IMG/VR virus record: IMGVR_UViG_3300037468_000371
Coordinates: 1 to 64,000 of that record
Direction: 5' to 3' (one strand)
Source of the DNA: a virus
DNA length: 64,000 bases
The translations under genes were made by a program, and so were the position numbers. The notes beneath the pieces were generated by a model. It did no database searches. It had not been told where the DNA came from and saw nothing but the letters and a program-made list of their open reading frames with translations. How positions within the stretch are numbered: position 1 is the first letter of the stretch; every line of letters begins with the position of its first letter. This document shows positions 37,034 through 52,728 of this stretch, piece by piece.

Positions 37034-38812
37034 ATGCAGCCGCAAGAGCCGCAGGTCGAGCTGCTCGACGATCGGACGCTGGCCGTCCGTGGCGCCTTCT
37101 TCATCCGTGAGGCAATCAAGGAGATCCCCGGGCGCCGTTGGGATGCGGCCCGCAGCCTATGGCTGCTGCCGCGGTCGCCGTTCGCGGCCCGCGCGCTGCT
37201 CAGCGTCGTGCCCTCGGCCATCGACGTGCCCGAGGTCGTGGAACTTGCCGGCCATGTGGCCCCGGGGCGCCGGACAGATCCGGAGCTGGACGAGCCGCTG
37301 GACAATCACTCGCCCGTAGGCCCCGCGTGGCTTCACCAGACGCGGGCGGCCCGCTGGCTCCTCGGTAACGATGCGGCCCTGCTGCAATACGGCATGCGCA
37401 CGGGCAAGACCCGCTCGACCCTCGATGCGGCCCGCGCCGCGGGCGCTCGGCTCATTCTGGTACTCGCGCCGCTTCGTGCCTGCATGGTCTGGCAGCGCGA
37501 GGCCGAAGCCCATCATCCCGGCTACTTCCGCGTCGTGCGGCTCGATCGCCGCTCCATCCAGCAACGGGCGGCGCAGCTGCGTGAAGAGGTGCGGCTCGCC
37601 CTTGCCCCCGGCGGGCAGCCCGCGGTGATCGCCCTGAACTACGAGGCCGCATGGCGCCCGCTGCTCAGTGAGCCGCTGCTGTCCATTCGGTGGGACGTGC
37701 TCGTCCTGGACGAGTGCCATCGCATCAAGTCGCCCGGCTCACACCAGTCGAAGTTCTGCGGTCGCCTCCAGCGCGCCGCGCGGCGCCGTTGGGCGCTGTC
37801 GGGGACACCGCTGGCCCACTCGCCGATGGACGCCTACGCGATCTTCCGCGCGCTGGACCCCGGCATCTTCGGCACGGCCTTCGGCGCCTTCCGCTCCCGC
37901 TACGCGATCCTCGGCGGCTACCTCGGCCGCGAGGTCGTCGGCTACCGGAACCTTGAGGAGTTCCGCGAGCGCTACTTCTCGATCACGCTCGCGGCCTCCC
38001 GTGATGTCCTAGACCTGCCCGAAGCGATCCACGAGACGGTCGTGATCGAGCTGCCTGCCGAGGCGCGGCGGCTACACGCGCAGGTGAAGGACCATGCGAT
38101 GGCGATGCTGGCGAGCGGCGACGGCGAGATCGTGGCGACGAACGTCCTGACCCAGATGCTGCGGATGTGCCAGATCGCTTCCGGCCATACGCGCGTCGAC
38201 GACCCCGTGGCCGTGACCGATGGGCAGATCGGGATCTTCGATCCCGAGGCCGCGCCGGCCGCGCCCGGCGGCCCGCGCACGGTGGAGGTCCATCGCGCGA
38301 AGGAGGAGGCCGTCGTCGAGATCCTGGGGGACCTCGACCCGCGCGAGCCCGTTGTGGTGTTCTGCCGCTTCCGGCACGACTTGGATCAGGTCGAGCGCGC
38401 CACGGCCGCGGCCGGCCGCCTGTATCGGGAACTGTCGGGCCGCCGCAACGACCTTGAGGACTGGCTCGGCTCGGCCGGCGGCGAGGTGCTCGGCGTGCAG
38501 TATCAGGCCGGGGGCGAGGGGATCGATCTAGCGCGGGCGAGCTACTGCATCCTGTACAACGATACGTTCGAGCTGGCCAAGTCCGACCAGGCGATTGCCC
38601 GCATCCACGGGCCGAAGTCACGCAACCGTGTGGTCTACTTTCACCTGGTCGCCCGCGGCACCATCGACGAGTATGTGCGGGACACGCTCGTGCGCCGCCG
38701 CGATGTGATCGCCCGCGTGCTGGACGAGCGCGCCCTCGGTAACGGCGGCGGCGGCGCGCCGATCATAGACGAAGACGGGCAGCAGGCCGAAGACGAGGAG
38801 GAACCGTTCTGA
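37034..38812 (+). CDS. SNF2-family helicase
   Basis: GMRTGKT, LDECHRIK, LSGTP, GGEGIDL, QAIARIH. Confidence 0.92.
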   Translation: MQPQEPQVELLDDRTLAVRGAFFIREAIKEIPGRRWDAARSLWLLPRSPFAARALLSVVPSAIDVPEVVELAGHVAPGRRTDPELDEPLDNHSPVGPAWLHQTRAARWLLGNDAALLQYGMRTGKTRSTLDAARAAGARLILVLAPLRACMVWQREAEAHHPGYFRVVRLDRRSIQQRAAQLREEVRLALAPGGQPAVIALNYEAAWRPLLSEPLLSIRWDVLVLDECHRIKSPGSHQSKFCGRLQRAARRRWALSGTPLAHSPMDAYAIFRALDPGIFGTAFGAFRSRYAILGGYLGREVVGYRNLEEFRERYFSITLAASRDVLDLPEAIHETVVIELPAEARRLHAQVKDHAMAMLASGDGEIVATNVLTQMLRMCQIASGHTRVDDPVAVTDGQIGIFDPEAAPAAPGGPRTVEVHRAKEEAVVEILGDLDPREPVVVFCRFRHDLDQVERATAAAGRLYRELSGRRNDLEDWLGSAGGEVLGVQYQAGGEGIDLARASYCILYNDTFELAKSDQAIARIHGPKSRNRVVYFHLVARGTIDEYVRDTLVRRRDVIARVLDERALGNGGGGAPIIDEDGQQAEDEEEPF

Positions 38813-39960
38813 TGAAGACGATAGCGGGTCGTACCGTCAACGAAGTCTACCCGCTGGTGATGTGGCTGATCGGTGAGGATGGCATCCGCACCACAAGCCG
38901 TAACGGCCCGGTTCTGCAGCTGCCCGGGCCGCTCACGATCACCACGGCCGCGCCGGGCGCTCGCGTGTTGTTCGACACCGCCCGGGACGCGAACCCGTTC
39001 TTCCACGTGGCCGAGGCCATCTGGATGCTCGCGGGCCGGGACGACGTGGAGTGGCCGGCGCGGTTCGTGCCGCGGATGCTCACGTACTCGGACGATGGCC
39101 GCACGTTGCACGGTGCCTACGGTGCCCGCTGGAGGTGCTGGGACAACGCGGACTACCGCGCCGAGCCGATCGACCAGCTCGTCGAGATCATCCAGATGCT
39201 GCGCGATGATCCGTGGACCCGCCGCGCGGTGCTCGGGTTCTGGAATCCTGCCACCGACCTAGCGATGGCTCGCTCGGGCGGTCGCGACGTGCCGTGCAAC
39301 CTGACCGCGACATTCCAGGCTGCGGCGGACTGGAATGGCAACGGCAGCCCGCGCATCGACATGACGGTGTTCCAGCGTTCCGGCGATCTGATCTGGGGCG
39401 TCACGGGGGCGAACGCCGTCCACCTGTCGATGCTGCACGAGTTCGTCGCCCGCGGCGCCGGGGGATGGCAGGGACGGATGCATCAGGTGGTCGTGAACCC
39501 TCACGTGTACTGTGATATCTACGAGCGGATCATGGCGCGGTCCCCTCACCTGCGCGACAGCGCCCGAGCGGCGCTCGCCTCGGTGTCGGACCCGTACTTC
39601 GCCGATAGCCAGCGCCCGCTGACGCAGCTGCTGTGGCCGGACGAGGAGAGCGAGATCCCGAGTGGGCGGAGCGAGATGTGCGGACACGAGATGTTCACCC
39701 GGGGCTGTCACGAGTTCCTGAAGAACGACTGGCCCGACAACCATCCGTTCCTTCCGTGGTTCAAGAAGGTGGCGCTTCCGCTGCGCGAGTCGTACTTCGC
39801 GTACCGGCGCGCTCGGGCCAACGGCTTGACCCCGGCGGCGGCTGCGCCGATCGGCTTGGGGCTCCTGAGCGGGATGGATCCGATGGGCGACTGGTACCTT
39901 GCGGCGCGGAACTGGTTCGCGCGCCGCGCCGAGGCAACGAAGGAGACAGACAGTGAGTGA
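38812..39960 (+). CDS. Thymidylate-synthase-family dUMP hydroxymethylase
   Basis: RDANPFFH, SDDG...GAYG, DVPCN (catalytic Cys), RSGDLIWGVTGANAVH (Asn at the dUMP-specificity position). Confidence 0.88.
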   Translation: MKTIAGRTVNEVYPLVMWLIGEDGIRTTSRNGPVLQLPGPLTITTAAPGARVLFDTARDANPFFHVAEAIWMLAGRDDVEWPARFVPRMLTYSDDGRTLHGAYGARWRCWDNADYRAEPIDQLVEIIQMLRDDPWTRRAVLGFWNPATDLAMARSGGRDVPCNLTATFQAAADWNGNGSPRIDMTVFQRSGDLIWGVTGANAVHLSMLHEFVARGAGGWQGRMHQVVVNPHVYCDIYERIMARSPHLRDSARAALASVSDPYFADSQRPLTQLLWPDEESEIPSGRSEMCGHEMFTRGCHEFLKNDWPDNHPFLPWFKKVALPLRESYFAYRRARANGLTPAAAAPIGLGLLSGMDPMGDWYLAARNWFARRAEATKETDSE

Positions 39961-40678
39961 AGACAGAGCAGGCGATGCGAGCATGGACTACCTGAGGCAC
40001 CTCGTCGCGATCGCCGACAAGGACGTCGAGGTCTTGCGCCAGAAGGAGCGCACCTACCGCGGCTCGTGGAAGAAGCGCGGCGGGGCCGGAGCATTCCACA
40101 TGCTGGCGCGGAAGTGGGACCGGCTCGAGAACATCGCGAACGGCTCCGGCGGCGACATCTTCCAGGCCATCGACGACGACTGGAAGCTGCACGGCCCGGG
40201 CTCGCCGGACGGGACGGCGCTGGCCGAAGTCCAGGATCTGCGCCGGTACCTGATGCTCGTGGAAGCTGAGATGATCCAGCGCAGCGGCGTGGACATCGAC
40301 ATCGACGCGGACGGCGGCGGCGTGTCCGTGGACACGACGGCGTTCGGATACCCGGACTGCTTCCGGAACATCAAGTTCGCCGCCGCCGGGCCGCTCGTGC
40401 AGCATCCGGACTTCCCGGTGGACGAGCGCGAGATGGCCGAGGACGCCGCCGAGCAGGAGCGCTACTACCGGGGCCGGGGCGCGCGGCGCGCCGCGGACCG
40501 GGAGCGCTCGCTCGCCGAGGAGGCGCTCGGCCTGCTGCCGAAGCTTCGCTCGGCGCTCGAAGACGCGCACCGGAAGAAGGAGTACGACCCCGCGGTGCAG
40601 CGGGGCATCATGCTGCTGCAGGAGATCATCCACTCCATCGAACGGGCGTACGTCCCGCCGAGCGCCCGCGGCATCTGA
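39953..40678 (+). CDS. Nucleotide-modification-associated domain protein (Nmad1/DUF1599-like, MazG-like) with C-terminal extension
   Basis: KERTYRGSWKKRGGAGAFHMLARKWDRLEN...DLRRYLMLVEAE. Confidence 0.75.
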   Translation: MSEDRAGDASMDYLRHLVAIADKDVEVLRQKERTYRGSWKKRGGAGAFHMLARKWDRLENIANGSGGDIFQAIDDDWKLHGPGSPDGTALAEVQDLRRYLMLVEAEMIQRSGVDIDIDADGGGVSVDTTAFGYPDCFRNIKFAAAGPLVQHPDFPVDEREMAEDAAEQERYYRGRGARRAADRERSLAEEALGLLPKLRSALEDAHRKKEYDPAVQRGIMLLQEIIHSIERAYVPPSARGI

Positions 40679-40702: not shown

Positions 40703-42043
40703 ATGAAGGCTCCAACGATTCACCCGCCGGCCGCGCGCCTCGGCATTCTGTTCGCCGGGCTCGGCGCGGTAGCCACAACGACAATCGCCGGCATCATCAT
40801 GGGCCGGCTCCACCCCGGGATGGCGCTGATCGGCTCGCTGACCGAGATGCAGCGCATCCGGCTCGGCACCGGGCCGGACCGCCGGAACCCGCTGATCAAG
40901 GAGCTGCTGCCGCTCGCCCCGCTCGACTCGATGGTGTTCGGAGCGTGGGACCCGATCGGAGACAGCGCCTACGAAGCCGCGCTCCGGGCCGGAGTGCTGA
41001 GCGATCTGCATCTGGAATCGGTGCAGCCTGATCTGGACCAGATCGAACCGATGTCCGCGGTGTTCTCGAGCGACTGGGTGCGCCGCCTCGCCAGCGAGGC
41101 CAACAACGTCAAGCCCGCGAGCGCGGGCCGGGACACCGGGATGGCGATCGTCGATGCGCTCTGCTCCGACATCGAACGGTTCCGCGTCGCTCACGGCAAC
41201 TGCCCGGTCGTGGTCGTTTGGACTGGCTCGACCGAGTCACACAGCCTGTCGTACCCCGAGCGGGACGGGGATCTGGTGGCGCTGCGCCACGAGTTCGAGA
41301 CCAAGCAGGCCGGCGGCCCGCTGGCGCACACGCCGCCGTCGATGTTCTACGCCTACGCCGCGGCGCTCTGCGGCGCGCCGTTCATCAACGCCTCGCCGAA
41401 CCTGTGCATGGATACCGTGGCCATGCTCGAAGCCTCGCTGGTGCTGAACGCGCCCGTGGCCGGCAAGGACCTGAAGACGGGCCAGACCCTGATGAAGACC
41501 GTTCTGGCCCCCGCGCTGAAGGCCCGCTCGCTCGGGCTGGCCGGCTGGTTCTCGACAAACATCCTCGGGAACCGCGACGGTCAGGTGCTGGACGATCCAG
41601 CGGCGTTCCGCACTAAGGAGGAGTCGAAGCTGGGCGTGCTGCAGTCCATCCTGGATCCGGACATGTATCCCGAGCTCTATGAGGACGCGTACCACAAGGT
41701 ACGGATCGAGTACTACCCGCCGCGCGGGGACGCGAAGGAGGGATGGGACAACATCGACCTGGTCGGTTGGCTCGGCTACCCGATGCAGCTGAAGGTGAAC
41801 TTCCTGTGCCGCGACTCGATCCTGGCCGCGCCGCTCGTTCTGGACCTGATCCGACTGATCGATCTGGCGCGCCGGGCCAACCTTGCCGGAGTGCAGGAAT
41901 GGCTCAGCTTCTACTTCAAGTCCCCCGTGGTGTACCCGGGTGGAATCGCAGAGCACGACCTGTTCATCCAGCACCGCAAGCTGAAGAACTTCTTGCGCAT
42001 GCTCGCTGGCCACGCGCCGCTGACGCATGCCGAAGAGGGGTGA
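40703..42043 (+). CDS. ino1: myo-Inositol-1-phosphate synthase
   Basis: GLGAVATT, FGAWD, WTGSTE, NASPN, GKDLKTGQT, STNILGNRDG, PPRGDAKEGWD, RDSILAAPLVLD, SFYFKSP. Confidence 0.95.
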   Translation: MKAPTIHPPAARLGILFAGLGAVATTTIAGIIMGRLHPGMALIGSLTEMQRIRLGTGPDRRNPLIKELLPLAPLDSMVFGAWDPIGDSAYEAALRAGVLSDLHLESVQPDLDQIEPMSAVFSSDWVRRLASEANNVKPASAGRDTGMAIVDALCSDIERFRVAHGNCPVVVVWTGSTESHSLSYPERDGDLVALRHEFETKQAGGPLAHTPPSMFYAYAAALCGAPFINASPNLCMDTVAMLEASLVLNAPVAGKDLKTGQTLMKTVLAPALKARSLGLAGWFSTNILGNRDGQVLDDPAAFRTKEESKLGVLQSILDPDMYPELYEDAYHKVRIEYYPPRGDAKEGWDNIDLVGWLGYPMQLKVNFLCRDSILAAPLVLDLIRLIDLARRANLAGVQEWLSFYFKSPVVYPGGIAEHDLFIQHRKLKNFLRMLAGHAPLTHAEEG

Positions 42044-42054
42044 GGGCGAACGCC

Positions 42055-43128
42055 ATGCCCCGAGGAGTGTACCCACGCCAACCGCGCGACCCGAACCGGC
42101 CGAAGAAGGAGCGGAAGCCGCGCCAACCGCGCGACCCGAACCGGCCGCGGAAGGAGCGGAAGCCACGCCAACCGCGCGACCCGAACCGGCCGCGGAAGGA
42201 GCGGAAGCCGCATGAGGTGAAGCGCGACGCAGACGGTCGCGTCAAGAAGTACGCACGGGGCGCGGGGTTAGTCCCGGCCATCAGGACGCCGGCCGTGGCG
42301 CGCCCGCCATTCATCCTGGAGATCCGCGGGGCCGGCGGCTCGGGCAAGACCACAGTAGCCCGCGCCGTGATGTCCCGTTACGCTTCGGGGCGGCCGATGC
42401 AGTTGCACGAGCCGTGGGAGCTGGAGACGCTGGAGAAGGGCCGTCGAGTCTGGTGGGGAAGCGGCGCGCTGCTCAAGCCGGGCGCCACGCTGACACACCG
42501 TGGCACAGTAGCGCGGGTGAACAACCGGGTGTACGGGCACCTGCTCGAACGGCACGACGAGCATGGGCGTATCGCCGGCCGGCCGCTTCTGGCCGTGGGC
42601 AAGTACGCGAAGGACTGCGGCGGCGTGGACACGGTAGCGAACATGGACGTGGCCTACGAGATTATCCGCCGCTACCACGAGCTGGGGTTCGACGTCCTGG
42701 CCGAGGGCAAGGTCCTTTCCCACTCGACGAACGAGCGGCCCCTGCGCTTCAAGGATCACCTGGTTGTGATCTTCTTGGAAGTCACCGAGGAGTTCTCGTT
42801 CGAGAACCAGGTGAAGCGCCGCACCGAGAGCGGCTCAGAGACGGATATGGCGAAGCTGGAATCGATCCGCTCGAACGCGCGGGCCGAAGTCCGCGCCGCC
42901 CGATCGTTCGCGCGCCGCCTCGGCGAAGAGGGCGTGGAGGTCTTCCCGACCGACTCGCACGAGGCCGCCGTGCAGTACGCGCTGGAACGGCTCGGGCTCG
43001 AGAATGCGCCGATCCACGAGGACTTCTGGGAGCTGTTCGAGATGCCCCCGGAAAGCGACGGCCGCTCGCGGCCGCGCGGCCCCCGCTACGGAGACAGGGA
43101 CCCGGATCCGCAGGTGACGCTGTGGTAA
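42055..43128 (+). CDS. P-loop nucleotide kinase of hypermodification clusters, with N-terminal basic repeats
   Basis: IRGAGGSGKTT, VGKY...CGGVDTV, DVLAEG. Confidence 0.8.
   Translation: MPRGVYPRQPRDPNRPKKERKPRQPRDPNRPRKERKPRQPRDPNRPRKERKPHEVKRDADGRVKKYARGAGLVPAIRTPAVARPPFILEIRGAGGSGKTTVARAVMSRYASGRPMQLHEPWELETLEKGRRVWWGSGALLKPGATLTHRGTVARVNNRVYGHLLERHDEHGRIAGRPLLAVGKYAKDCGGVDTVANMDVAYEIIRRYHELGFDVLAEGKVLSHSTNERPLRFKDHLVVIFLEVTEEFSFENQVKRRTESGSETDMAKLESIRSNARAEVRAARSFARRLGEEGVEVFPTDSHEAAVQYALERLGLENAPIHEDFWELFEMPPESDGRSRPRGPRYGDRDPDPQVTLW
42073..42207 (+). repeat. Three 45-bp in-frame tandem repeats (PRQPRDPNRP[K/R]KERK)
   Basis: Units at 42073, 42118 and 42163, nearly identical. Confidence 0.95.
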
Positions 43129-44060
43129 ACGCCCTGAACGCCGATGGAACGCCGCGGATGAACCCCGAGCACATCAACGGCTTCTTCTCGACGGCGCGCG
43201 AGCGCTACTCTATCCTGCTGCGGCGCCGCGCGGGCGCGCCGTGGCCGTGGACCGAGGACCCGGTCTTCCTCCGCTGGCGATTCTGCAACGTACACCGCGA
43301 GGACGACCGCACGACCCGCTGGTTCGCCCGCGAAGTTCGCGGCCCGCTGGCCGCGAACCCGCGCGCCGTGTACCGCGCAACGGTGGCTTTCCGCTGGTAC
43401 AACCGCATCGAGACCGGCTCGCTGCTCAGGCCGTGGCTGCTCGCGGACGAGTGGCCGTTGCGCAAGGTGCTGAACCGCCTGAAGCGGAACAGCCCGCCGT
43501 ACGTCACGGGTGCGTACATCGTCCAGGGCCTTCGTGGCTACAAGAAGGCCGAGGGCGTTGCGCGGGCAATCGACGAGTTCAGGCGCACGGGGCCGCGCAT
43601 CGACGACATCACGGCCGAGGGGACCCTCCAGGCCGCGCACTGGTTGATCGCATCGCGCGTCCGGGCGCAGGGGACCTTCACGGCCTACGAAGTGGTCACC
43701 GACCTGCGCCACACCTGCGCCCTGTGTGAAGCCCCGGACATCTTCGGCTGGTGCTATGTCGGCCCCGGCGCCCGGCGGGGCCTGAGCCGCCTGTTGTTCG
43801 GGCATCCCGATGGGCTCGGGAACCCGAGCAGCGATCGGTTCACCGTGTCCGCGTACGAGCTGGGGCTCTGCCAAGACCTGCTCGCTCTGGCGCGCATCGA
43901 ATCCTATTGGCCGGCGGAGTGGCCTGCGTGGGAGATGCGCGAAGTGGAGCACTGGCTGTGCGAATACGACAAGTACGAGCGCGGCGCTGCGATCCTGGCC
44001 GGCCGTCCCGGCTCGATGAAGCGCCGCTACCTAGAGAAAGAACGCAAGGAGCTGATCTGA
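43122..44060 (+). CDS. 5-hmdU DNA kinase (aGPT-Pplase1 family)
   Basis: PWTEDPV...RFCNVHREDDRTT, FRWYN, AYEVVTDL, GPGARRGL, EHWLCEYDKY. Confidence 0.88.
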   Translation: MVNALNADGTPRMNPEHINGFFSTARERYSILLRRRAGAPWPWTEDPVFLRWRFCNVHREDDRTTRWFAREVRGPLAANPRAVYRATVAFRWYNRIETGSLLRPWLLADEWPLRKVLNRLKRNSPPYVTGAYIVQGLRGYKKAEGVARAIDEFRRTGPRIDDITAEGTLQAAHWLIASRVRAQGTFTAYEVVTDLRHTCALCEAPDIFGWCYVGPGARRGLSRLLFGHPDGLGNPSSDRFTVSAYELGLCQDLLALARIESYWPAEWPAWEMREVEHWLCEYDKYERGAAILAGRPGSMKRRYLEKERKELI

Positions 44061-49752: not shown

Positions 49753-50231
49753 TTAGCGGACTTATAAGGAACGATCGTACGCGGAGCTCAGGGGCGCCGA
49801 GGGTTCTAGTACTGCGTTCCGCAGCGGACCGCTGAGAATAATGCAATGGCCTATCTAGATCCAATGTCCACTCGAATTTCGCCGCGCTTAGGGGATCGAT
49901 CGAGGCCGGGCCGGTCGTCGAAAAAGGCCGATCCGGCCCTTTTGCACGCCCGCGTGGAGGCGCGAGAGGCTCCGCAAAAACAGAGAAGTGAAAACTCGGT
50001 AAATCGAGTACTTTTGGGGAAATCGATGAGCAACGGAGGACTTCGCCGTGATCGATGCCGGGTAAAGGCCCCAGAAAGCGCGGGAAATTTTGGAGGGTTT
50101 TCTGGCAGGATTTCGAGGGGCTGCGGCAGGCTTAGGGGCCGCGCGCTTCCGTTGGGGCGATTTTGTGCCAAAAACTGGTGTCCTTGCAAGGAGCATCTTC
50201 CAAGGACCGTAAATTCGAGGTTCAAATCCGA
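49753..50231. other. AT-enriched intergenic region, candidate replication origin
   Basis: Visibly lower GC, many A/T tracts and short palindromes; directly after the primase. Confidence 0.5.
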
Positions 50232-50813
50232 ATGTCAATGCACTCGCTAAACCTATGGCTTGGCTCGGAGATAGACCTCATTGCGCCGGACGTAAATCAG
50301 ATTTACGCGGACGATATTGCGGTCGCCCTCAGCCGGATCTGCCGATTCGGTGGCCACACGGTGGACTTCTACTCGGTCGCGCAGCACTCCGTTTTTGTCT
50401 CCCGCTACTGCGGCGAACACGGTGGCCCGGCCGCTGCCCGTTGGGGTCTGCTGCACGACGCTTCGGAAGCCTACCTCGGCGACATCGTCTGGCCGCTCAA
50501 GCACGTCCCCGAGATGCGGGCGGCCTACGCCCCGATCGAAGAGCGCATGATGGAGGCGATCGCTCGCAGGTTCGCGCTCGGGCCGAAGCCCGCCGCGATC
50601 GTCCACGACGGGGATCGGGCTGTGCTGCTGGCCGAGGCGCGTGATCTCCACCGAAGCGGCCGGCTCCTTGGTCGCGTAGCAGCATCGAGGGTCGAAGCCG
50701 AGATCGACCAGATCAAGCCCTGGCCCGCGGAACCGATCTTGGCGCTGGAACCGCACCGAGCCGCGCGGCTATTCCGCACGGAATTCGAGAAGCTCTGGAA
50801 GGGAGCATCATGA
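50232..50813 (+). CDS. HD-domain 5'-deoxynucleotidase-like phosphohydrolase (YfbR-like)
   Basis: DIAVALSRICRFGGH...YSVAQHS...LLHDASEAYLGDI. Confidence 0.9.
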   Translation: MSMHSLNLWLGSEIDLIAPDVNQIYADDIAVALSRICRFGGHTVDFYSVAQHSVFVSRYCGEHGGPAAARWGLLHDASEAYLGDIVWPLKHVPEMRAAYAPIEERMMEAIARRFALGPKPAAIVHDGDRAVLLAEARDLHRSGRLLGRVAASRVEAEIDQIKPWPAEPILALEPHRAARLFRTEFEKLWKGAS

Positions 50814-51874
50814 GACACGCCGAAGCGCAAGAGACGGCAGCGCGGATGATCGACAACATGCGCATGGGCGACCGGCCCGAACGGCTTCACTGGGAACTGT
50901 TCCCGCAGTTCGCCGAGGCCGAATGCTGGGCCGGAGGGCCCGATCCGCAGATCGCGCTGATTGGCTCAATTGGCGCCGGATTGCCGCCCAATGAGATGGT
51001 TTGGTTGATCGGCTGCTACTGCGCTCAGCACTGCGTCCCGTCCGCGCTGGCGGTGTGGCGCCGCTGGCCGCGGCCCGAATCGATCCTCAAGGCGCATTTC
51101 ATCGAAGTCGCCGGATGGCTCGAAGCCAATTGGCCGGCGCTTCCGGTCCGTCCCGAGATGCGTCACCATCGGATGCCCGAGAAGCGGGCCAAGGCCCTGC
51201 TCGGCTTCGCCGCCTACGCTCAGTCCTGGCCCCGGACACCGCGCTACGCCGACGCAGCCGATCCGTACGAGGCCGCATGGACCGATACGATCCGGTCGAT
51301 CCCCTACTACGGCCGCTACATGGCGATCAAGTTCCTGGAATTCCTGAGCCGTTCGGTCGCTCCGGAGCTGCGGCTTTCCGATCTGCGGCCCGAGGGCGGA
51401 TGGTCGCCGCGGCGGGTGCTGTCGTGGATGTTCCCGCGGCAGGCCGAGATCCTCAACTCGACGGACACGAAGCCCCGTGCCCGAGCGGCCGTGCATGGCG
51501 TGGCCAGCGAGATGCTGAAACACATCAGGGCAACCCGCGTGCCGAACCTGTCGTGGTTCGATCTGCAGGTGCTGCTCTGCGAGTACCGCGAGCACTGGGA
51601 TGGCGGGTTCTACGCCGGCTGCACTCACGACGAGGAGGTCCTGTACGCCGAGCGGGCGTTGCCGGCGATGGGCGATGGTGTCGCATCAATCTTCTACGAT
51701 CATCGGTCACGCCTCTTCCCCGACCGTGTGCTGGGCGAACGGCGAGGCTGGCACGGAATCAGGAAGCCGTGCGCGCTGACGCTGAAGAAGCAGGGCTTCA
51801 TCTGGTCGGATCGCACGCACGACTACCCGTCGATGGAACTGATCTGGAAGAACGAGCAGGGGGAGAGGGCCTGA
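50810..51874 (+). CDS. Amino acid:DNA transferase-like protein (aGPT-Pplase2, HhH-glycosylase fold)
   Basis: WLIGCY, EMRHHR, YYGRYMAIKFLEFL, QVLLCEY...FYAG. Confidence 0.75.
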   Translation: MRHAEAQETAARMIDNMRMGDRPERLHWELFPQFAEAECWAGGPDPQIALIGSIGAGLPPNEMVWLIGCYCAQHCVPSALAVWRRWPRPESILKAHFIEVAGWLEANWPALPVRPEMRHHRMPEKRAKALLGFAAYAQSWPRTPRYADAADPYEAAWTDTIRSIPYYGRYMAIKFLEFLSRSVAPELRLSDLRPEGGWSPRRVLSWMFPRQAEILNSTDTKPRARAAVHGVASEMLKHIRATRVPNLSWFDLQVLLCEYREHWDGGFYAGCTHDEEVLYAERALPAMGDGVASIFYDHRSRLFPDRVLGERRGWHGIRKPCALTLKKQGFIWSDRTHDYPSMELIWKNEQGERA

Positions 51875-52728
51875 TGGCGAAGAAGGCAGCAGAATCCACG
51901 GTGATCATCGTTCCGTCGCGGCGCCGGCCGCCGCTCGTCGTATTCGAGCATCACGAGATGCCCGCCGGGATCCCGGTCGTGGTCCTTGCGGACCCGGACG
52001 TCTACGAGGAACACCGCGTGGCTTACGGGGATCGCTACTCAGTCATCCGGGGGGATCATGGCTGCGCGGCACAGATGCACCGATCCTACCTGGTCGGGTA
52101 CGCCATGAAGATGGACTGGGTGTTCCGGGTCGACGACGACATGCACGACCGTTCGTTGGTCGGCCTGCCGGGGTTTGAAAACCTGGTGGACCGCGGAAGT
52201 GTTGGAAAGTACCGCACGGTAGCGGATGCCTTCACCCGCGCGTGTGAGGCAGCCGATGGGTTGCCGGGGGTATCGCTGGTCGGGTTCTCGAACACCACCC
52301 GTGTGGACTGGCTCTCGCCCGGGTTCGGCCGGACGTGGGGCCTGATCACCGGGAATATCCAGCTGTACCGCTCGACGACGGAGCCGGGCCGGTTCATCAA
52401 TCCGGAGCAGGCGATGTACGAGGATGTGTGGCGCACCTGTTCACACCGTGAGGACGGGGGCGGGTGGACGGGCCGGGTGAAGTCGATCGGCGTGGACAAG
52501 AAGACGGTCTGTAACCCGAAGACGACGGCCTACGCGGCCGGGGATCTGGCGCAGCGCGAAGAGGCGATCCGGGCGATCACCACGCGGTTCCCAACCATCG
52601 TGTCCTGCGACGGAACGCGGACGATCAACGGCGGCAGCCTCACGATCGCCTACTGGAAGTTCCGGCCCCCGCCCGGGGCGCGCAGGGGGAAGGGGCAGGG
52701 CGCGCAGGAAGCTCCGCCAGCTTCCTGA
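51874..52728 (+). CDS. TAGT/GREB1-like GT-A glycosyltransferase
   Basis: IIVPSRRR, VFRVDDD, YEDV; translationally coupled to the transferase. Confidence 0.7.
   Translation: MAKKAAESTVIIVPSRRRPPLVVFEHHEMPAGIPVVVLADPDVYEEHRVAYGDRYSVIRGDHGCAAQMHRSYLVGYAMKMDWVFRVDDDMHDRSLVGLPGFENLVDRGSVGKYRTVADAFTRACEAADGLPGVSLVGFSNTTRVDWLSPGFGRTWGLITGNIQLYRSTTEPGRFINPEQAMYEDVWRTCSHREDGGGWTGRVKSIGVDKKTVCNPKTTAYAAGDLAQREEAIRAITTRFPTIVSCDGTRTINGGSLTIAYWKFRPPPGARRGKGQGAQEAPPAS

What the first reader, a model, noticed from the sequence alone, without database searches (positions are those of the whole stretch)
50810..52728. AADT-like transferase translationally coupled to a TAGT/GREB1-like DNA glycosyltransferase
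Seen: HD, AADT and GT genes overlap by ATGA/TGATG. Established: TAGT/base-J glucosyltransferase-type enzymes glycosylate hydroxymethyl-pyrimidines, normally as an alternative to the kinase/AADT route. Inference: having both suggests either two parallel modifications of 5-hmdU, or a two-step build in which a polyol adduct is further glycosylated.
Basis: partly seen in the sequence, partly recalled or inferred. Interest (0 to 1): 0.7.

Follow-up and report, generated by a model that had tools for sequence, protein, structure and literature searches.

The report
Phage thymine-modifying transferase paired with sugar-transferase
An uncultured phage carries, back to back, a DNA-base transferase and a DNA sugar-adding enzyme inside its thymine-replacement pathway, a gene pair that recurs in many uncultured phages and predicts a sugar-bearing thymine derivative that nobody has yet described chemically.

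Summary
Three + strand genes overlap by ATGA (50810-50813) and TGATG (51872-51876).

- **50810-51874 (AADT-like):** a divergent member of the amino acid:DNA transferase superfamily. Its model matches PaMx11 gp46/PUGT at Z 16.6. The catalytic Cys is invariant, but the canonical metal-binding Glu-Thr pair reads Gln-Val.
- **51874-52728 (glycosyltransferase):** a GT-A enzyme with an invariant DDD motif. It hits no Pfam model directly. Its fold and its language-model neighbours are phage TAGT/GREB1-like proteins.

The pairing is not an oddity of this phage. In 17 of 19 distinct lineages of this glycosyltransferase family, an AADT lies within 2 kb upstream. In 10 of those the stop and start overlap or abut. 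The window's AADT sits in a 100/100-supported clade whose 13 rows are all glycosyltransferase-linked.

One lineage has the glycosyltransferase with no kinase and no AADT. That favours direct glycosylation of 5-hydroxymethyl-dU, in parallel with the kinase/AADT route. Glycosylation of the AADT adduct is not excluded.

I found no paper describing this pairing. This scan has noted similar AADT-plus-glycosyltransferase clusters on other DNA at least eight times. The chemistry is untested.

The parts
50235..50813 (+). HD-domain phosphohydrolase, probably a deoxynucleoside 5'-monophosphatase. The start is uncertain: ATG 50235 or TTG 50163.
   Evidence: phrog_318 'deoxyribonucleoside 5' monophosphate phosphatase' E 2.9e-46. 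Pfam YfbR-like E 2.2e-5, just under the cut-off. NCBIfam 5'-deoxynucleotidase E 0.0055, far under the cut-off. Homologues accompany the GT in all 8 GT-bearing loci of the first set. A complete relative (L052) carries an NT5C 5'-nucleotidase next to the TS homologue and has no HD hit in the locus.
50810..51874 (+). Divergent amino acid:DNA transferase (AADT / aGPT-Pplase2 superfamily), 354 aa, P0002
   Evidence: No direct Pfam, PHROG or NCBIfam hit. 22 of 45 relatives carry PF18724, and 5 of 6 re-scanned relatives hit it at E 2e-8 to 6e-6. The model has pLDDT 91.5. VIA-align gives Z 16.6, rmsd 3.1 A over 247 residues to PaMx11 gp46/PUGT 8z2n, with the next match at Z 9.4. C257 is invariant in 47 of 47.
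51874..52728 (+). TAGT/GREB1-like GT-A glycosyltransferase, 284 aa, P0001
   Evidence: No direct Pfam, NCBIfam or PDB sequence hit. It belongs to a family of 43 representatives. D87 and D88 are invariant, D89 and D184 nearly so, and H191 is invariant. 15 of 33 members hit PF20691 TAGT weakly. The model has pLDDT 90.2 and a GT-A fold. The nearest viral models are TAGT proteins with TM 0.6-0.78. In the ESM Atlas, 29 of 30 feature hits are TAGT clusters.
49753..50234 (.). Non-coding spacer ahead of the HD-AADT-GT unit
   Evidence: No frame shows raised third-position GC here. No tRNA was found, no Rfam match reached its threshold, and there was no sigma-70-like promoter hit.
38812..39960 (+). Thymidylate-synthase homologue, the presumed dUMP hydroxymethylase that supplies 5-hmdU
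   Evidence: PF00303 E 1e-19. phrog_5131 E 5e-86. It falls far below every NCBIfam thymidylate-synthase equivalog cut-off.
40703..42043 (+). myo-inositol-1-phosphate synthase
   Evidence: PF07994 E 1.3e-67 and PF01658 E 6.9e-32.
42055..43128 (+). P-loop NTPase, the presumed kinase subunit of the 5-hmdU DNA kinase
   Evidence: Walker A motif GAGGSGKT at residue 92. Only weak AAA-type Pfam hits. No PF18748 hit in the record. Homologues sit next to HMUDK_hel genes in related loci.
43158..44060 (+). HMUDK_hel protein: the helical partner of the kinase, and an AADT paralogue
   Evidence: PF18723 E 1.4e-33. Family-to-family hhalign against the AADT family gives probability 91.9%, E 7e-7, over 110 columns that include the Cys motif. 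The Cys is kept in 26 of 26 ungapped rows.

Best explanation
The stretch is the second half of a thymidine hypermodification pathway in an uncultured, 67% GC phage. The thymidylate-synthase homologue makes 5-hydroxymethyl-dUMP, which is incorporated into DNA in place of thymine. The HD enzyme probably drains competing deoxynucleoside monophosphates. The P-loop protein with its helical partner phosphorylates 5-hmdU in DNA. The 354-aa AADT-superfamily enzyme flips that base out, attacks C6 with Cys257 and swaps the phosphate for a nucleophile that is still unknown. The 284-aa protein is a metal-dependent GT-A enzyme of the TAGT/GREB1-like kind. It transfers a sugar from an NDP-sugar to a hydroxyl on the modified base. 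The most likely acceptor is the hydroxymethyl group of 5-hmdU residues that the kinase/AADT route leaves untouched, as the base-J glucosyltransferase does. The virion DNA would then carry two thymine derivatives. Shown here: gene identities, folds, motifs and conserved synteny. Inferred: every chemical step, the acceptor and the sugar.
For: **Identity of the GT**
- GT-A fold at pLDDT 90.2.
- An invariant DDD directly after strand 82-86, plus a near-invariant ED and an invariant H191.
- Nearest viral models are TAGT-domain proteins and a T-even-type glucosyl-HMC glucosyltransferase.
- In the ESM Atlas, 29 of 30 feature hits are TAGT clusters. Structural neighbours include GREB1-related clusters and a Tet_JBP fusion.
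- 15 of 33 family members hit PF20691.

**Identity of the AADT**
- Z 16.6 to PUGT, well clear of HhH glycosylases at Z 9.4 or below.
- Invariant Cys. Its essential role is stated in PMC13458397 (passages) and PMC11472151 (passages).

**Pathway context in the window**
- TS homologue, P-loop protein and HMUDK_hel.

**Conserved context elsewhere**
- The GT family lies on the same strand next to AADT, HD, P-loop, HMUDK_hel and TS genes in 8 of 43 AADT-seeded viral loci.
- GT-seeded viral and metagenome loci show the same layout.
- 17 of 19 distinct lineages have an AADT within 2 kb upstream.

**Direct action on 5-hmdU**
- The L046 lineage has HD, HMUDK_hel, this GT, a second bona fide TAGT (PF20691, E 2e-9) and TS.
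- It has no AADT in the whole 68.7-kb record (85% complete) and no Walker A protein within 10 kb.
- In L052 the GT sits in a cluster with radical SAM, PLP and canonical AADT genes. From recall, that set resembles the M6 cluster, whose product is an amine and not an alcohol.
Against: - P0001 itself reaches no Pfam, PHROG, NCBIfam or PDB sequence threshold. The TAGT link rests on relatives, fold and language-model features.
- No TET/JBP gene is present, so the defining association of TAGT is absent.
- All 13 rows of the window's AADT clade are GT-linked, and in 10 lineages the two genes overlap or abut. This fits a dependent, sequential pair at least as well as two independent routes.
- The AADT clade lacks the Glu-Thr metal pair whose mutation abolished activity in a characterised relative, so its chemistry may differ from the known one.
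- The L046 record is 85% complete, so an AADT or kinase could lie in the missing part.
- The phage is said by earlier first-reader notes to carry other glycosyltransferase cassettes among structural genes. I did not test this.
- No biochemical or mass-spectrometric data exist for any member.
Confidence: 0.42

Rival explanations
1. Two-step build. The AADT first installs a hydroxyl-bearing nucleophile on phosphorylated 5-hmdU. This could be a hydroxy-amino acid or, in this phage, inositol or inositol phosphate made by its own synthase. The glycosyltransferase then glycosylates that adduct, giving a single, larger hypermodified base.
For: - AADT and GT overlap or abut in 10 of 19 lineages.
- The window's AADT clade (100/100 support) is GT-linked in 13 of 13 rows.
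- In 6 further lineages a single gene sits between AADT and GT. It is a radical SAM/SPASM enzyme in L005, L037, L048 and L066, and a GFO/IDH/MocA oxidoreductase in L003 and L014. From recall, both families include sugar- and cyclitol-oxidising enzymes.
- The window holds a full-length inositol-1-phosphate synthase in the first module.
- In a sister group of this AADT family, such a synthase lies directly upstream of the AADT in 16 of 43 loci. 10 of 10 tested are PF01658 at about E 1e-35.
- In L010 the AADT is fused to a dual-specificity phosphatase domain.
Against: - None of the 8 GT-bearing loci among the 43 has an inositol-phosphate synthase, and none of the 16 synthase-bearing loci has the GT.
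- The GT-linked relatives have 38-55% GC. From recall, that does not suggest inositol-rich actinobacterial hosts.
- The same GT family works in a lineage with no AADT and no kinase detected.
- It also occurs in a cluster with a different, canonical AADT.
Confidence: 0.3
2. The AADT-superfamily protein is mainly a base-flipping helper for the glycosyltransferase and not a phosphate-displacing transferase. The pair together glycosylates 5-hmdU, while the kinase serves another branch or is vestigial.
For: - In the kinase-free L046 lineage the GT start overlaps the end of an HMUDK_hel gene in the same way.
- HMUDK_hel is homologous to the AADT family, including the Cys motif.
- The window's AADT clade lacks the canonical metal-binding Glu-Thr pair.
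- An earlier follow-up in this scan (e1-6143079) read a kinase-free AADT-plus-GT operon this way.
Against: - The catalytic Cys is invariant in 47 of 47, which argues for retained covalent chemistry.
- The kinase genes are conserved beside the pair in every locus long enough to show them, except the L046 lineage.
Confidence: 0.12
3. The glycosyltransferase does not act on DNA. It glycosylates a virion protein, a host envelope polymer or a small molecule, and merely rides in the same operon.
For: - The best solved-structure matches include small-molecule GT-A enzymes, such as mannosylglycerate synthase at Z 13.6 and glucosyl-3-phosphoglycerate synthase at Z 13.0.
- First-reader notes report other glycan cassettes in this phage (e1-6188388, e1-6188380). 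I did not test this.
Against: - The family was found only next to thymidine-hypermodification genes in all 19 lineages.
- It was not found in 185,579 prokaryote genomes by pattern scan or in cultured-phage records.
- The nearest viral and Atlas neighbours are DNA-modifying TAGT proteins.
- Z values of 12.4-13.6 are spread across the many GT-A families among the top 50 rows, so they show the fold only.
Confidence: 0.08

Closest known systems
Pseudomonas phage PaMx11 gp46/PUGT (PDB 8z2m, 8z2n) and the AADT / aGPT-Pplase2 family (PF18724; from recall also M6 gp51, the ViI and PhiW-14 enzymes; SH-Ab 15599 Pplase2)
   Same: P0002 has the same all-helical HhH-containing fold (Z 16.6, rmsd 3.1 A, 247 residues). 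The Cys is invariant at the equivalent place, 5 residues before the end of the Pfam domain in both a family member and a canonical AADT. It shares the genomic company of a TS homologue and 5-hmdU DNA kinase parts.
   Different: No direct Pfam hit, and identity to PUGT is about 12%. The metal-binding Glu-Thr pair reads Gln-Val: Q in 36 and E in 11 of 47, V in 47 of 47. No PLP, FAD or acetyltransferase tailoring gene was identified by the family scans of the neighbouring genes of the window. The constant partner is a glycosyltransferase.
TET-associated glycosyltransferases of phages (TAGT, PF20691). From recall, also the related base-J glucosyltransferase of kinetoplastids and GREB1.
   Same: P0001 has the GT-A fold with a DDD motif. 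It has the closest predicted-structure neighbours and Atlas neighbours among TAGT proteins. It sits in a phage DNA-modification cluster.
   Different: It falls below the Pfam threshold. No TET/JBP dioxygenase is in the record. The hydroxymethyl base comes from a thymidylate-synthase homologue before replication. The family is tied to 5-hmdU kinase and AADT genes, not to TET and methyltransferase genes.
T-even phage glucosyl-hydroxymethylcytosine system
   Same: It uses a pre-replicative hydroxymethylase of the thymidylate-synthase family followed by post-replicative sugar transfer. A protein named beta-glucosyl-HMC-alpha-glucosyltransferase is a rank-11 structural neighbour (TM 0.66).
   Different: The base here is uracil-derived, and a kinase/AADT route coexists with the sugar transfer.
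Sugar-bearing thymidine hypermodifications of SP-15, YerA41 and Carin-5
   Same: These are thymine derivatives that carry sugars (PMC12686479, passages read).
   Different: That paper's text mentions no kinase or AADT (0 occurrences of each). Its gene block consists of other glycosyltransferases and nucleotide-sugar enzymes next to a special DNA polymerase.

Membership tests
TAGT (PF20691) / GT-A DNA glycosyltransferases | Match to the Pfam TAGT model above its gathering score | tested here: not met
   P0001 has no hit at E<=1 by hmmscan and none at E<=10 in the whole record. 15 of 33 family members hit weakly, best E 4.4e-4.
TAGT (PF20691) / GT-A DNA glycosylltransferases | GT-A fold with an Asp-rich metal/nucleotide-sugar motif after the fourth strand | tested here: met
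   The model has pLDDT 90.2. Foldseek matches GT-A enzymes at E 2e-6 and weaker, and VIA gives Z up to 13.6. D87 and D88 are invariant and D89 is kept in at least 90% of rows, directly after strand 82-86.
TAGT (PF20691) / GT-A DNA glycosyltransferases | Nearest relatives by structure are TAGT proteins and not other GT-A families | tested here: met
   In BFVD, ranks 2, 5, 9, 12-14 and 16 are named TAGT-domain proteins, with TM 0.51-0.78. In the Atlas, 29 of 30 feature hits are TAGT clusters at score 0.98, and structural TM to TAGT and GREB1-related clusters is 0.71-0.81.
TAGT (PF20691) / GT-A DNA glycosyltransferases | Genomic association with a TET/JBP dioxygenase | tested here: not met
   No PF12851 match at E<=1 in the 72.7-kb record, which is 78% complete. 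The partners are TS homologue, kinase and AADT genes.
TAGT (PF20691) / GT-A DNA glycosyltransferases | Sugar transfer to a hydroxymethyl-pyrimidine in DNA | not testable with these tools
   This needs an enzyme assay or nucleoside mass spectrometry.
AADT / aGPT-Pplase2 (PF18724) | Match to the Pfam model above its gathering score | tested here: not met
   P0002 has no hit at E<=1. 22 of 45 relatives are flagged PF18724. 5 of 6 re-scanned relatives score 26.7-34.8 bits against a cut-off of 26.2.
AADT / aGPT-Pplase2 (PF18724) | PUGT-like helical fold | tested here: met
   Z 16.6, rmsd 3.1 A, 247 of 288 residues of 8z2n_B. The next family scores Z 9.4. Foldseek ranks 8z2n first at E 5.5e-3.
AADT / aGPT-Pplase2 (PF18724) | Catalytic cysteine | tested here: met
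   C257 is invariant in 47 of 47 family rows. Its position was matched to the canonical Cys through Pfam domain coordinates. Its role is taken from PMC13458397 and PMC11472151 (passages).
AADT / aGPT-Pplase2 (PF18724) | Metal-coordinating Glu-Thr pair four and three residues before the Cys | tested here: not met
   P0002 has Q253-V254. Across the family, Q appears in 36 and E in 11 of 47, and V in 47 of 47. The mapping rests on motif spacing and Pfam coordinates, not on a residue-level structural alignment.
AADT / aGPT-Pplase2 (PF18724) | Co-occurrence with a 5-hmdU DNA kinase and a dUMP hydroxymethylase-type TS homologue | tested here: met
   The window has PF18723 at E 1.4e-33, a P-loop protein, and PF00303 at E 1e-19. 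The same company appears in related loci.
5-hmdU DNA kinase (PF18748 P-loop + PF18723 helical domain) | Both parts present | tested here: inconclusive
   The helical part is clearly present. The neighbouring P-loop protein has a Walker A motif, but there is no PF18748 hit at E<=10. The two parts are separate genes here and in relatives.

The most novel reading that the evidence does not exclude
This high-GC phage decorates its thymine positions with a pseudo-disaccharide. The metal-pair-less AADT would attach inositol (phosphate), made by the phage's own synthase, to phosphorylated 5-hmdU. The TAGT-like enzyme would then glycosylate the cyclitol, and a phosphatase would trim it. The product would be a glycosyl-inositol-methyl-deoxyuridine, a class of DNA base with no precedent.
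Probability: 0.12. Interest if true: 0.85.

Novelty: new variant of a known kind. Interest (0 to 1): 0.6.

Why it matters
Characterised thymidine hypermodification pathways end in amino-acid- or polyamine-derived groups. Characterised TAGT-type enzymes act downstream of TET-like dioxygenases. Here a distinct TAGT-like clade is tied to the kinase/AADT machinery in at least 19 phage lineages. This predicts one or more sugar-bearing thymine derivatives that have not been described.

Such bases would matter for several reasons:
- They could affect phage resistance to restriction and other DNA-targeting defences.
- They could affect sequencing and amplification of environmental phage DNA.
- They could serve as new enzymatic tools for labelling 5-hmU.

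The AADT clade's loss of the canonical metal pair, and the homology between the kinase's helical partner and AADTs, also bear on how this enzyme superfamily diversified.

Tried and rejected
**Direct annotation of the two proteins**
- P0001 and P0002 gave nothing in Pfam, NCBIfam or PDB sequence searches.
- P0001's only PHROG hit ('tail tube protein', E 0.014) is taken as chance.
- Profile searches of PDB sequences with A1 and A2 gave only chance-level rows.

**Searches for relatives**
- The word-index homology search found no relative of P0001. The exhaustive search did.
- Megablast and tblastn against cultured-phage records found nothing for the region, P0001 or P0053.
- P0002 has only 22-24% identical relatives in Microbacterium and Mycobacterium phages.
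- Microbacterium phage Kozie gene 2 is an AADT-family member, but its four leftmost genes include no GT or HMUDK_hel relative.
- A pattern scan of prokaryote genomes for the GT family found nothing.

**Pairwise comparisons**
- Single-sequence hhalign gave no support for HMUDK_hel against A2, for a canonical AADT against A2, or for L046:6892-7848 against A2.
- The family-to-family comparison succeeded.

**Complex prediction**
- Prediction of an AADT-GT complex returned no verdict (score 0.00 against a mark of 0.32). It is not counted either way.

**Spacer ahead of the HD gene**
- A tRNA-like GGTTCAAATCC near 50210 is not a tRNA by ARAGORN. Nothing in the spacer reaches an Rfam threshold.
- Promoter- and terminator-like sites are at chance level.

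**Papers**
- PMC3763556 (Iyer et al. 2013) is not held. What I say about its naming of TAGT, JGT and GREB1 is recalled.
- Supplements of the papers were not opened. AADT alignments in the supplements of PMC11472151 and PMC13458397 could bear on the motif mapping.
- No paper pairing AADT with a glycosyltransferase was found.
- No paper links inositol-1-phosphate synthase to phage hypermodification.

**Rows dropped from counts**
- GT fragments without a 5' end (L074, L075, L076, and the second GT piece of L067) were dropped.
- Loci whose GT envelope was letter-identical to another were also dropped: L038, L039, L045, L047, L049, L050, L051, L064, L065, L067, L068, L070 and L071.


Full report
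**What the window is.** The window is 64 kb of a 72.7-kb IMG/VR virus record, which CheckV rates 78% complete. GC is about 67%.
- Structural genes lie on the + strand up to about 30 kb.
- Replication and DNA-modification genes lie on the + strand from 33 to 52.7 kb.
- A minus-strand block lies beyond 52.8 kb.
- No cultured-phage record resembles the region at the DNA level.

**The observation.**
- The HD gene's TGA (50811-50813) overlaps the ATG at 50810.
- The second gene's TGA (51872-51874) overlaps the ATG at 51874.
- Both starts have purine-rich runs upstream.
- Third-position GC picks out exactly these three frames.
- A 480-nt non-coding spacer precedes the HD gene. It holds no tRNA, no Rfam match above threshold and no promoter-like hit.
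- Convergent minus-strand genes follow the third gene. HD-AADT-GT therefore looks like a unit of its own.

**The 354-aa protein (P0002).**
- It hits no Pfam, PHROG or NCBIfam model itself.
- It has 45 relatives in the word-indexed collection. 22 of these are flagged PF18724, 'Amino acid:DNA transferase'. 5 of 6 re-scanned relatives hit that model just above its cut-off.
- A model built on 31 sequences has pLDDT 91.5 and is all-helical.
- Foldseek ranks the 5-phosphomethyl-dU glycinyltransferase gp46/PUGT of phage PaMx11 first.
- VIA-align gives Z 16.6, rmsd 3.1 A over 247 residues. The next matches are HhH DNA glycosylases and a queuine salvage enzyme at Z 9.4 or below.
- The family keeps an invariant Cys (C257, 47 of 47 rows). 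It lies five residues before the end of the Pfam domain, as in a canonical AADT from locus L052.
- Two papers, of which I read passages, state that this Cys is the catalytic nucleophile. The later one also states that mutating a Glu-Thr metal pair just before it abolishes activity (PMC11472151; PMC13458397).
- In P0002 and its family, that pair reads Gln-Val. Q appears in 36 and E in 11 of 47 rows, and V in 47 of 47.
- P0002 is therefore a member of the AADT superfamily by fold and catalytic Cys, but of a clade that departs from the characterised enzymes in a feature they need.

**The 284-aa protein (P0001).**
- It is an orphan by word search but has 42 relatives among cluster representatives by exhaustive phmmer.
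- The alignment of 33 members has invariant D87, D88, G137, G160 and H191. D89, D184 and R192 are nearly invariant.
- The model (pLDDT 90.2) places the DDD directly after a beta-strand, as in GT-A enzymes.
- Solved-structure matches are all GT-A glycosyltransferases. Foldseek E is 2e-6 or weaker, and VIA Z is 12.4-13.6 over the 50 rows shown, spread across many families. These matches show the fold only.
- Among predicted viral structures, the best matches are proteins named TET-associated glycosyltransferase. One is named beta-glucosyl-HMC-alpha-glucosyltransferase. TM values are 0.5-0.78.
- In the ESM Atlas, 29 of 30 nearest clusters by features are TAGT clusters. Structural neighbours include 'GREB1-related' clusters and a Tet_JBP fusion protein.
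- At the sequence level the link is weak. 15 of 33 family members hit PF20691, best E 4.4e-4. P0001 itself does not hit it.
- A bona fide TAGT from locus L046 aligns to the family profile with the N-terminal strand, the DDD and the ED motif in register. The E-value is only 0.0011 and the probability 20%.
By the Pfam threshold the protein is not a member.

**The rest of the pathway in the window.** Upstream lie the following genes:
- a thymidylate-synthase homologue, 38812-39960;
- an unassigned gene;
- a full-length inositol-1-phosphate synthase, 40703-42043;
- a P-loop protein with a Walker A motif, 42055-43128;
- a PF18723 HMUDK_hel protein, 43158-44060.

The P-loop protein does not hit the Pfam kinase model PF18748. 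No TET/JBP gene is present.

hhalign gives probability 91.9%, E 7e-7, over 110 columns that include the Cys motif. The Cys is kept in 26 of 26 ungapped HMUDK_hel rows. The kinase's helical partner is thus an AADT paralogue.

**Relatives and synteny.**
- An AADT-seeded scan of viral contigs gave 43 loci.
- The GT family is present in 8 of them. It is always on the same strand downstream of the AADT, and always with an HD gene. Where the locus reaches far enough, P-loop, HMUDK_hel and TS genes are also present.
- GT-seeded scans added 9 viral loci and 18 metagenome loci.
- I removed letter-identical GT copies and 5'-truncated fragments. That left 19 distinct lineages, the window included. They divide as follows:
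  - In 10, the AADT stop and GT start lie within -10 to +5 nt.
  - In 6, one gene lies between them. It is a radical SAM/SPASM enzyme in four and a GFO/IDH/MocA oxidoreductase in two.
  - In 1 (L052, a complete genome), a canonical PF18724 AADT and a PLP enzyme precede the GT. The cluster also holds a radical SAM enzyme, an amidoligase and an NT5C nucleotidase.
  - In 1 (L063, a 2.2-kb contig), a methyltransferase lies upstream.
  - In 1 (L046 and its copies), the order is HD, HMUDK_hel, GT, a second TAGT that passes the Pfam threshold, then TS.
- In the L046 lineage, the whole 68.7-kb record has no match to PF18724, PF18746, the AADT-family profile or the window's P-loop protein. No + strand ORF within 10 kb has a Walker A motif.
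- A maximum-likelihood tree of 47 AADT sequences puts the window's protein in a 100/100-supported clade of 13 rows, all GT-linked. A second, smaller GT-linked group lies elsewhere in the tree.
- AADTs preceded by an inositol-phosphate synthase fall almost entirely in a separate 20-row group. These make up 16 of 43 loci, and 10 of 10 tested are PF01658 at about E 1e-35.
- None of those 16 loci has the GT, and none of the 8 GT loci has the synthase. The window is the only case seen with both.
- The GT-linked relatives have 38-55% GC, against 67% for the window.

**How it most likely works.** The gene set implies the following steps:
1. The thymidylate-synthase homologue makes 5-hydroxymethyl-dUMP before replication.
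2. The HD enzyme removes competing deoxynucleotides. The NT5C nucleotidase that sits next to the TS homologue in L052, a locus with no HD hit, supports this role.
3. A two-gene kinase phosphorylates 5-hmdU in DNA.
4. The AADT displaces the phosphate with a nucleophile.

These steps follow the published scheme for M6, ViI, PaMx11 and PhiW-14 (PMC8989533 and PMC5889632, passages and listing). They are inferred here.

For the glycosyltransferase I favour direct transfer of a sugar to the hydroxymethyl group of 5-hmdU, for three reasons:
- That is what the nearest known enzymes do.
- The same family occurs with a TS homologue in a lineage with no detectable kinase or AADT.
- It also accompanies AADTs of at least three different clades with different tailoring enzymes, so 5-hmdU is the only substrate common to all contexts.

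I put this reading at about 0.4. The two-step reading stands at about 0.3. It is favoured by the exclusive AADT-clade-to-GT link, by the conserved start/stop overlap, and by the oxidoreductases wedged between the two genes in six lineages. A helper role for the AADT-like protein (0.12) and a non-DNA target (0.08) remain possible. That P0001 is a DNA-base glycosyltransferase of some kind I hold at about 0.8.

**Novelty.**
- Full-text searches found no paper pairing an AADT with a glycosyltransferase in thymidine hypermodification.
- The two central pathway papers mention no glycosyltransferase (0 occurrences in the listing; the 'glycos' hits are DNA-glycosylase mentions and a reference title).
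- A 2026 paper links AADTs and kinases to one subclass of phage T-dioxygenases and glycosyltransferases to another (PMC13229309, passages).
- Within this scan, however, at least eight notes or follow-ups on other genomes describe AADT-plus-TAGT-like clusters. One is probably the 68-kb phage that appears here as L002. The pattern is therefore recurrent, and this window is one more instance.
- This window is distinguished by its high GC, its split into two modules, its co-resident inositol-phosphate synthase and its deep branch.
- I rate it a new variant of a known kind. It is interesting to specialists because it predicts an undescribed base and offers a directly testable enzyme pair.

Noticed in passing
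L004, L006, L008, L010-L012, L016-L019, L022, L025, L028, L030, L033, L034 (gene just upstream of the AADT match): An inositol-1-phosphate synthase gene lies directly upstream of an AADT-family gene in 16 of 43 viral loci. 10 of 10 tested are PF01658 at about E 1e-35. These AADTs fall almost entirely in their own tree group (one row, L034, lies outside it). This suggests an inositol(-phosphate):DNA transferase clade.
   Followed up: partly
L010:9974-11482: An AADT domain (PF18724, E 9e-10) is fused to a dual-specificity phosphatase domain (PF00782, E 9e-7), right after an inositol-phosphate synthase gene. P0043 has the same architecture.
   Followed up: partly
window 43158-44060 and relatives: The 'helical domain of the 5-hmdU DNA kinase' (PF18723) is a separate gene here. 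It is homologous to the AADT family (hhalign 91.9%) and keeps the Cys of the catalytic motif in 26 of 26 ungapped rows.
   Followed up: yes
L046:8544-12695 (also L047, L064, L065): A kinase-free, AADT-free lineage has the order HD, HMUDK_hel, GT of this family, a second TAGT (PF20691, E 2e-9), then a TS homologue.
   Followed up: partly
L005:10830-11828, L037:11444-12436, L048:8555-9625, L066:2049-3041; L003:12772-13782, L014:10930-11955: A single gene lies between AADT and GT. It is a radical SAM/SPASM enzyme in four lineages and a GFO/IDH/MocA oxidoreductase in two. Both are probably sugar- or cyclitol-tailoring enzymes.
   Followed up: no
L066:2681-4611: Two tandem paralogues of the GT family lie side by side. 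L005 carries two further GT-2-like genes downstream of its GT.
   Followed up: no
L052:5538-13926: A complete 66.8-kb phage genome with terminal repeats has the order HMUDK_hel, P-loop, radical SAM, canonical AADT, PLP enzyme, GT of this family, amidoligase, NT5C nucleotidase and TS homologue.
   Followed up: partly
window 39899-40678: A 259-aa gene between the TS homologue and the inositol-phosphate synthase has no Pfam, PHROG or NCBIfam match. Relatives exist in L025 and L034. A first-reader note calls it Nmad1-like, which I could not confirm.
   Followed up: partly
window 49753-50234: This is a 480-nt spacer with no coding signal ahead of the HD gene. It contains a GGTTCAAATCC string that looks like a tRNA T-arm, but no tRNA or Rfam family is detected.
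   Followed up: yes
OK040792.1 879-1829 (L077): Gene 2 of cultured Microbacterium phage Kozie, annotated hypothetical, is an AADT-family member (profile E 2e-27). It lies at the left genome end beside the terminase, with no GT or HMUDK_hel relative among its three neighbours.
   Followed up: partly
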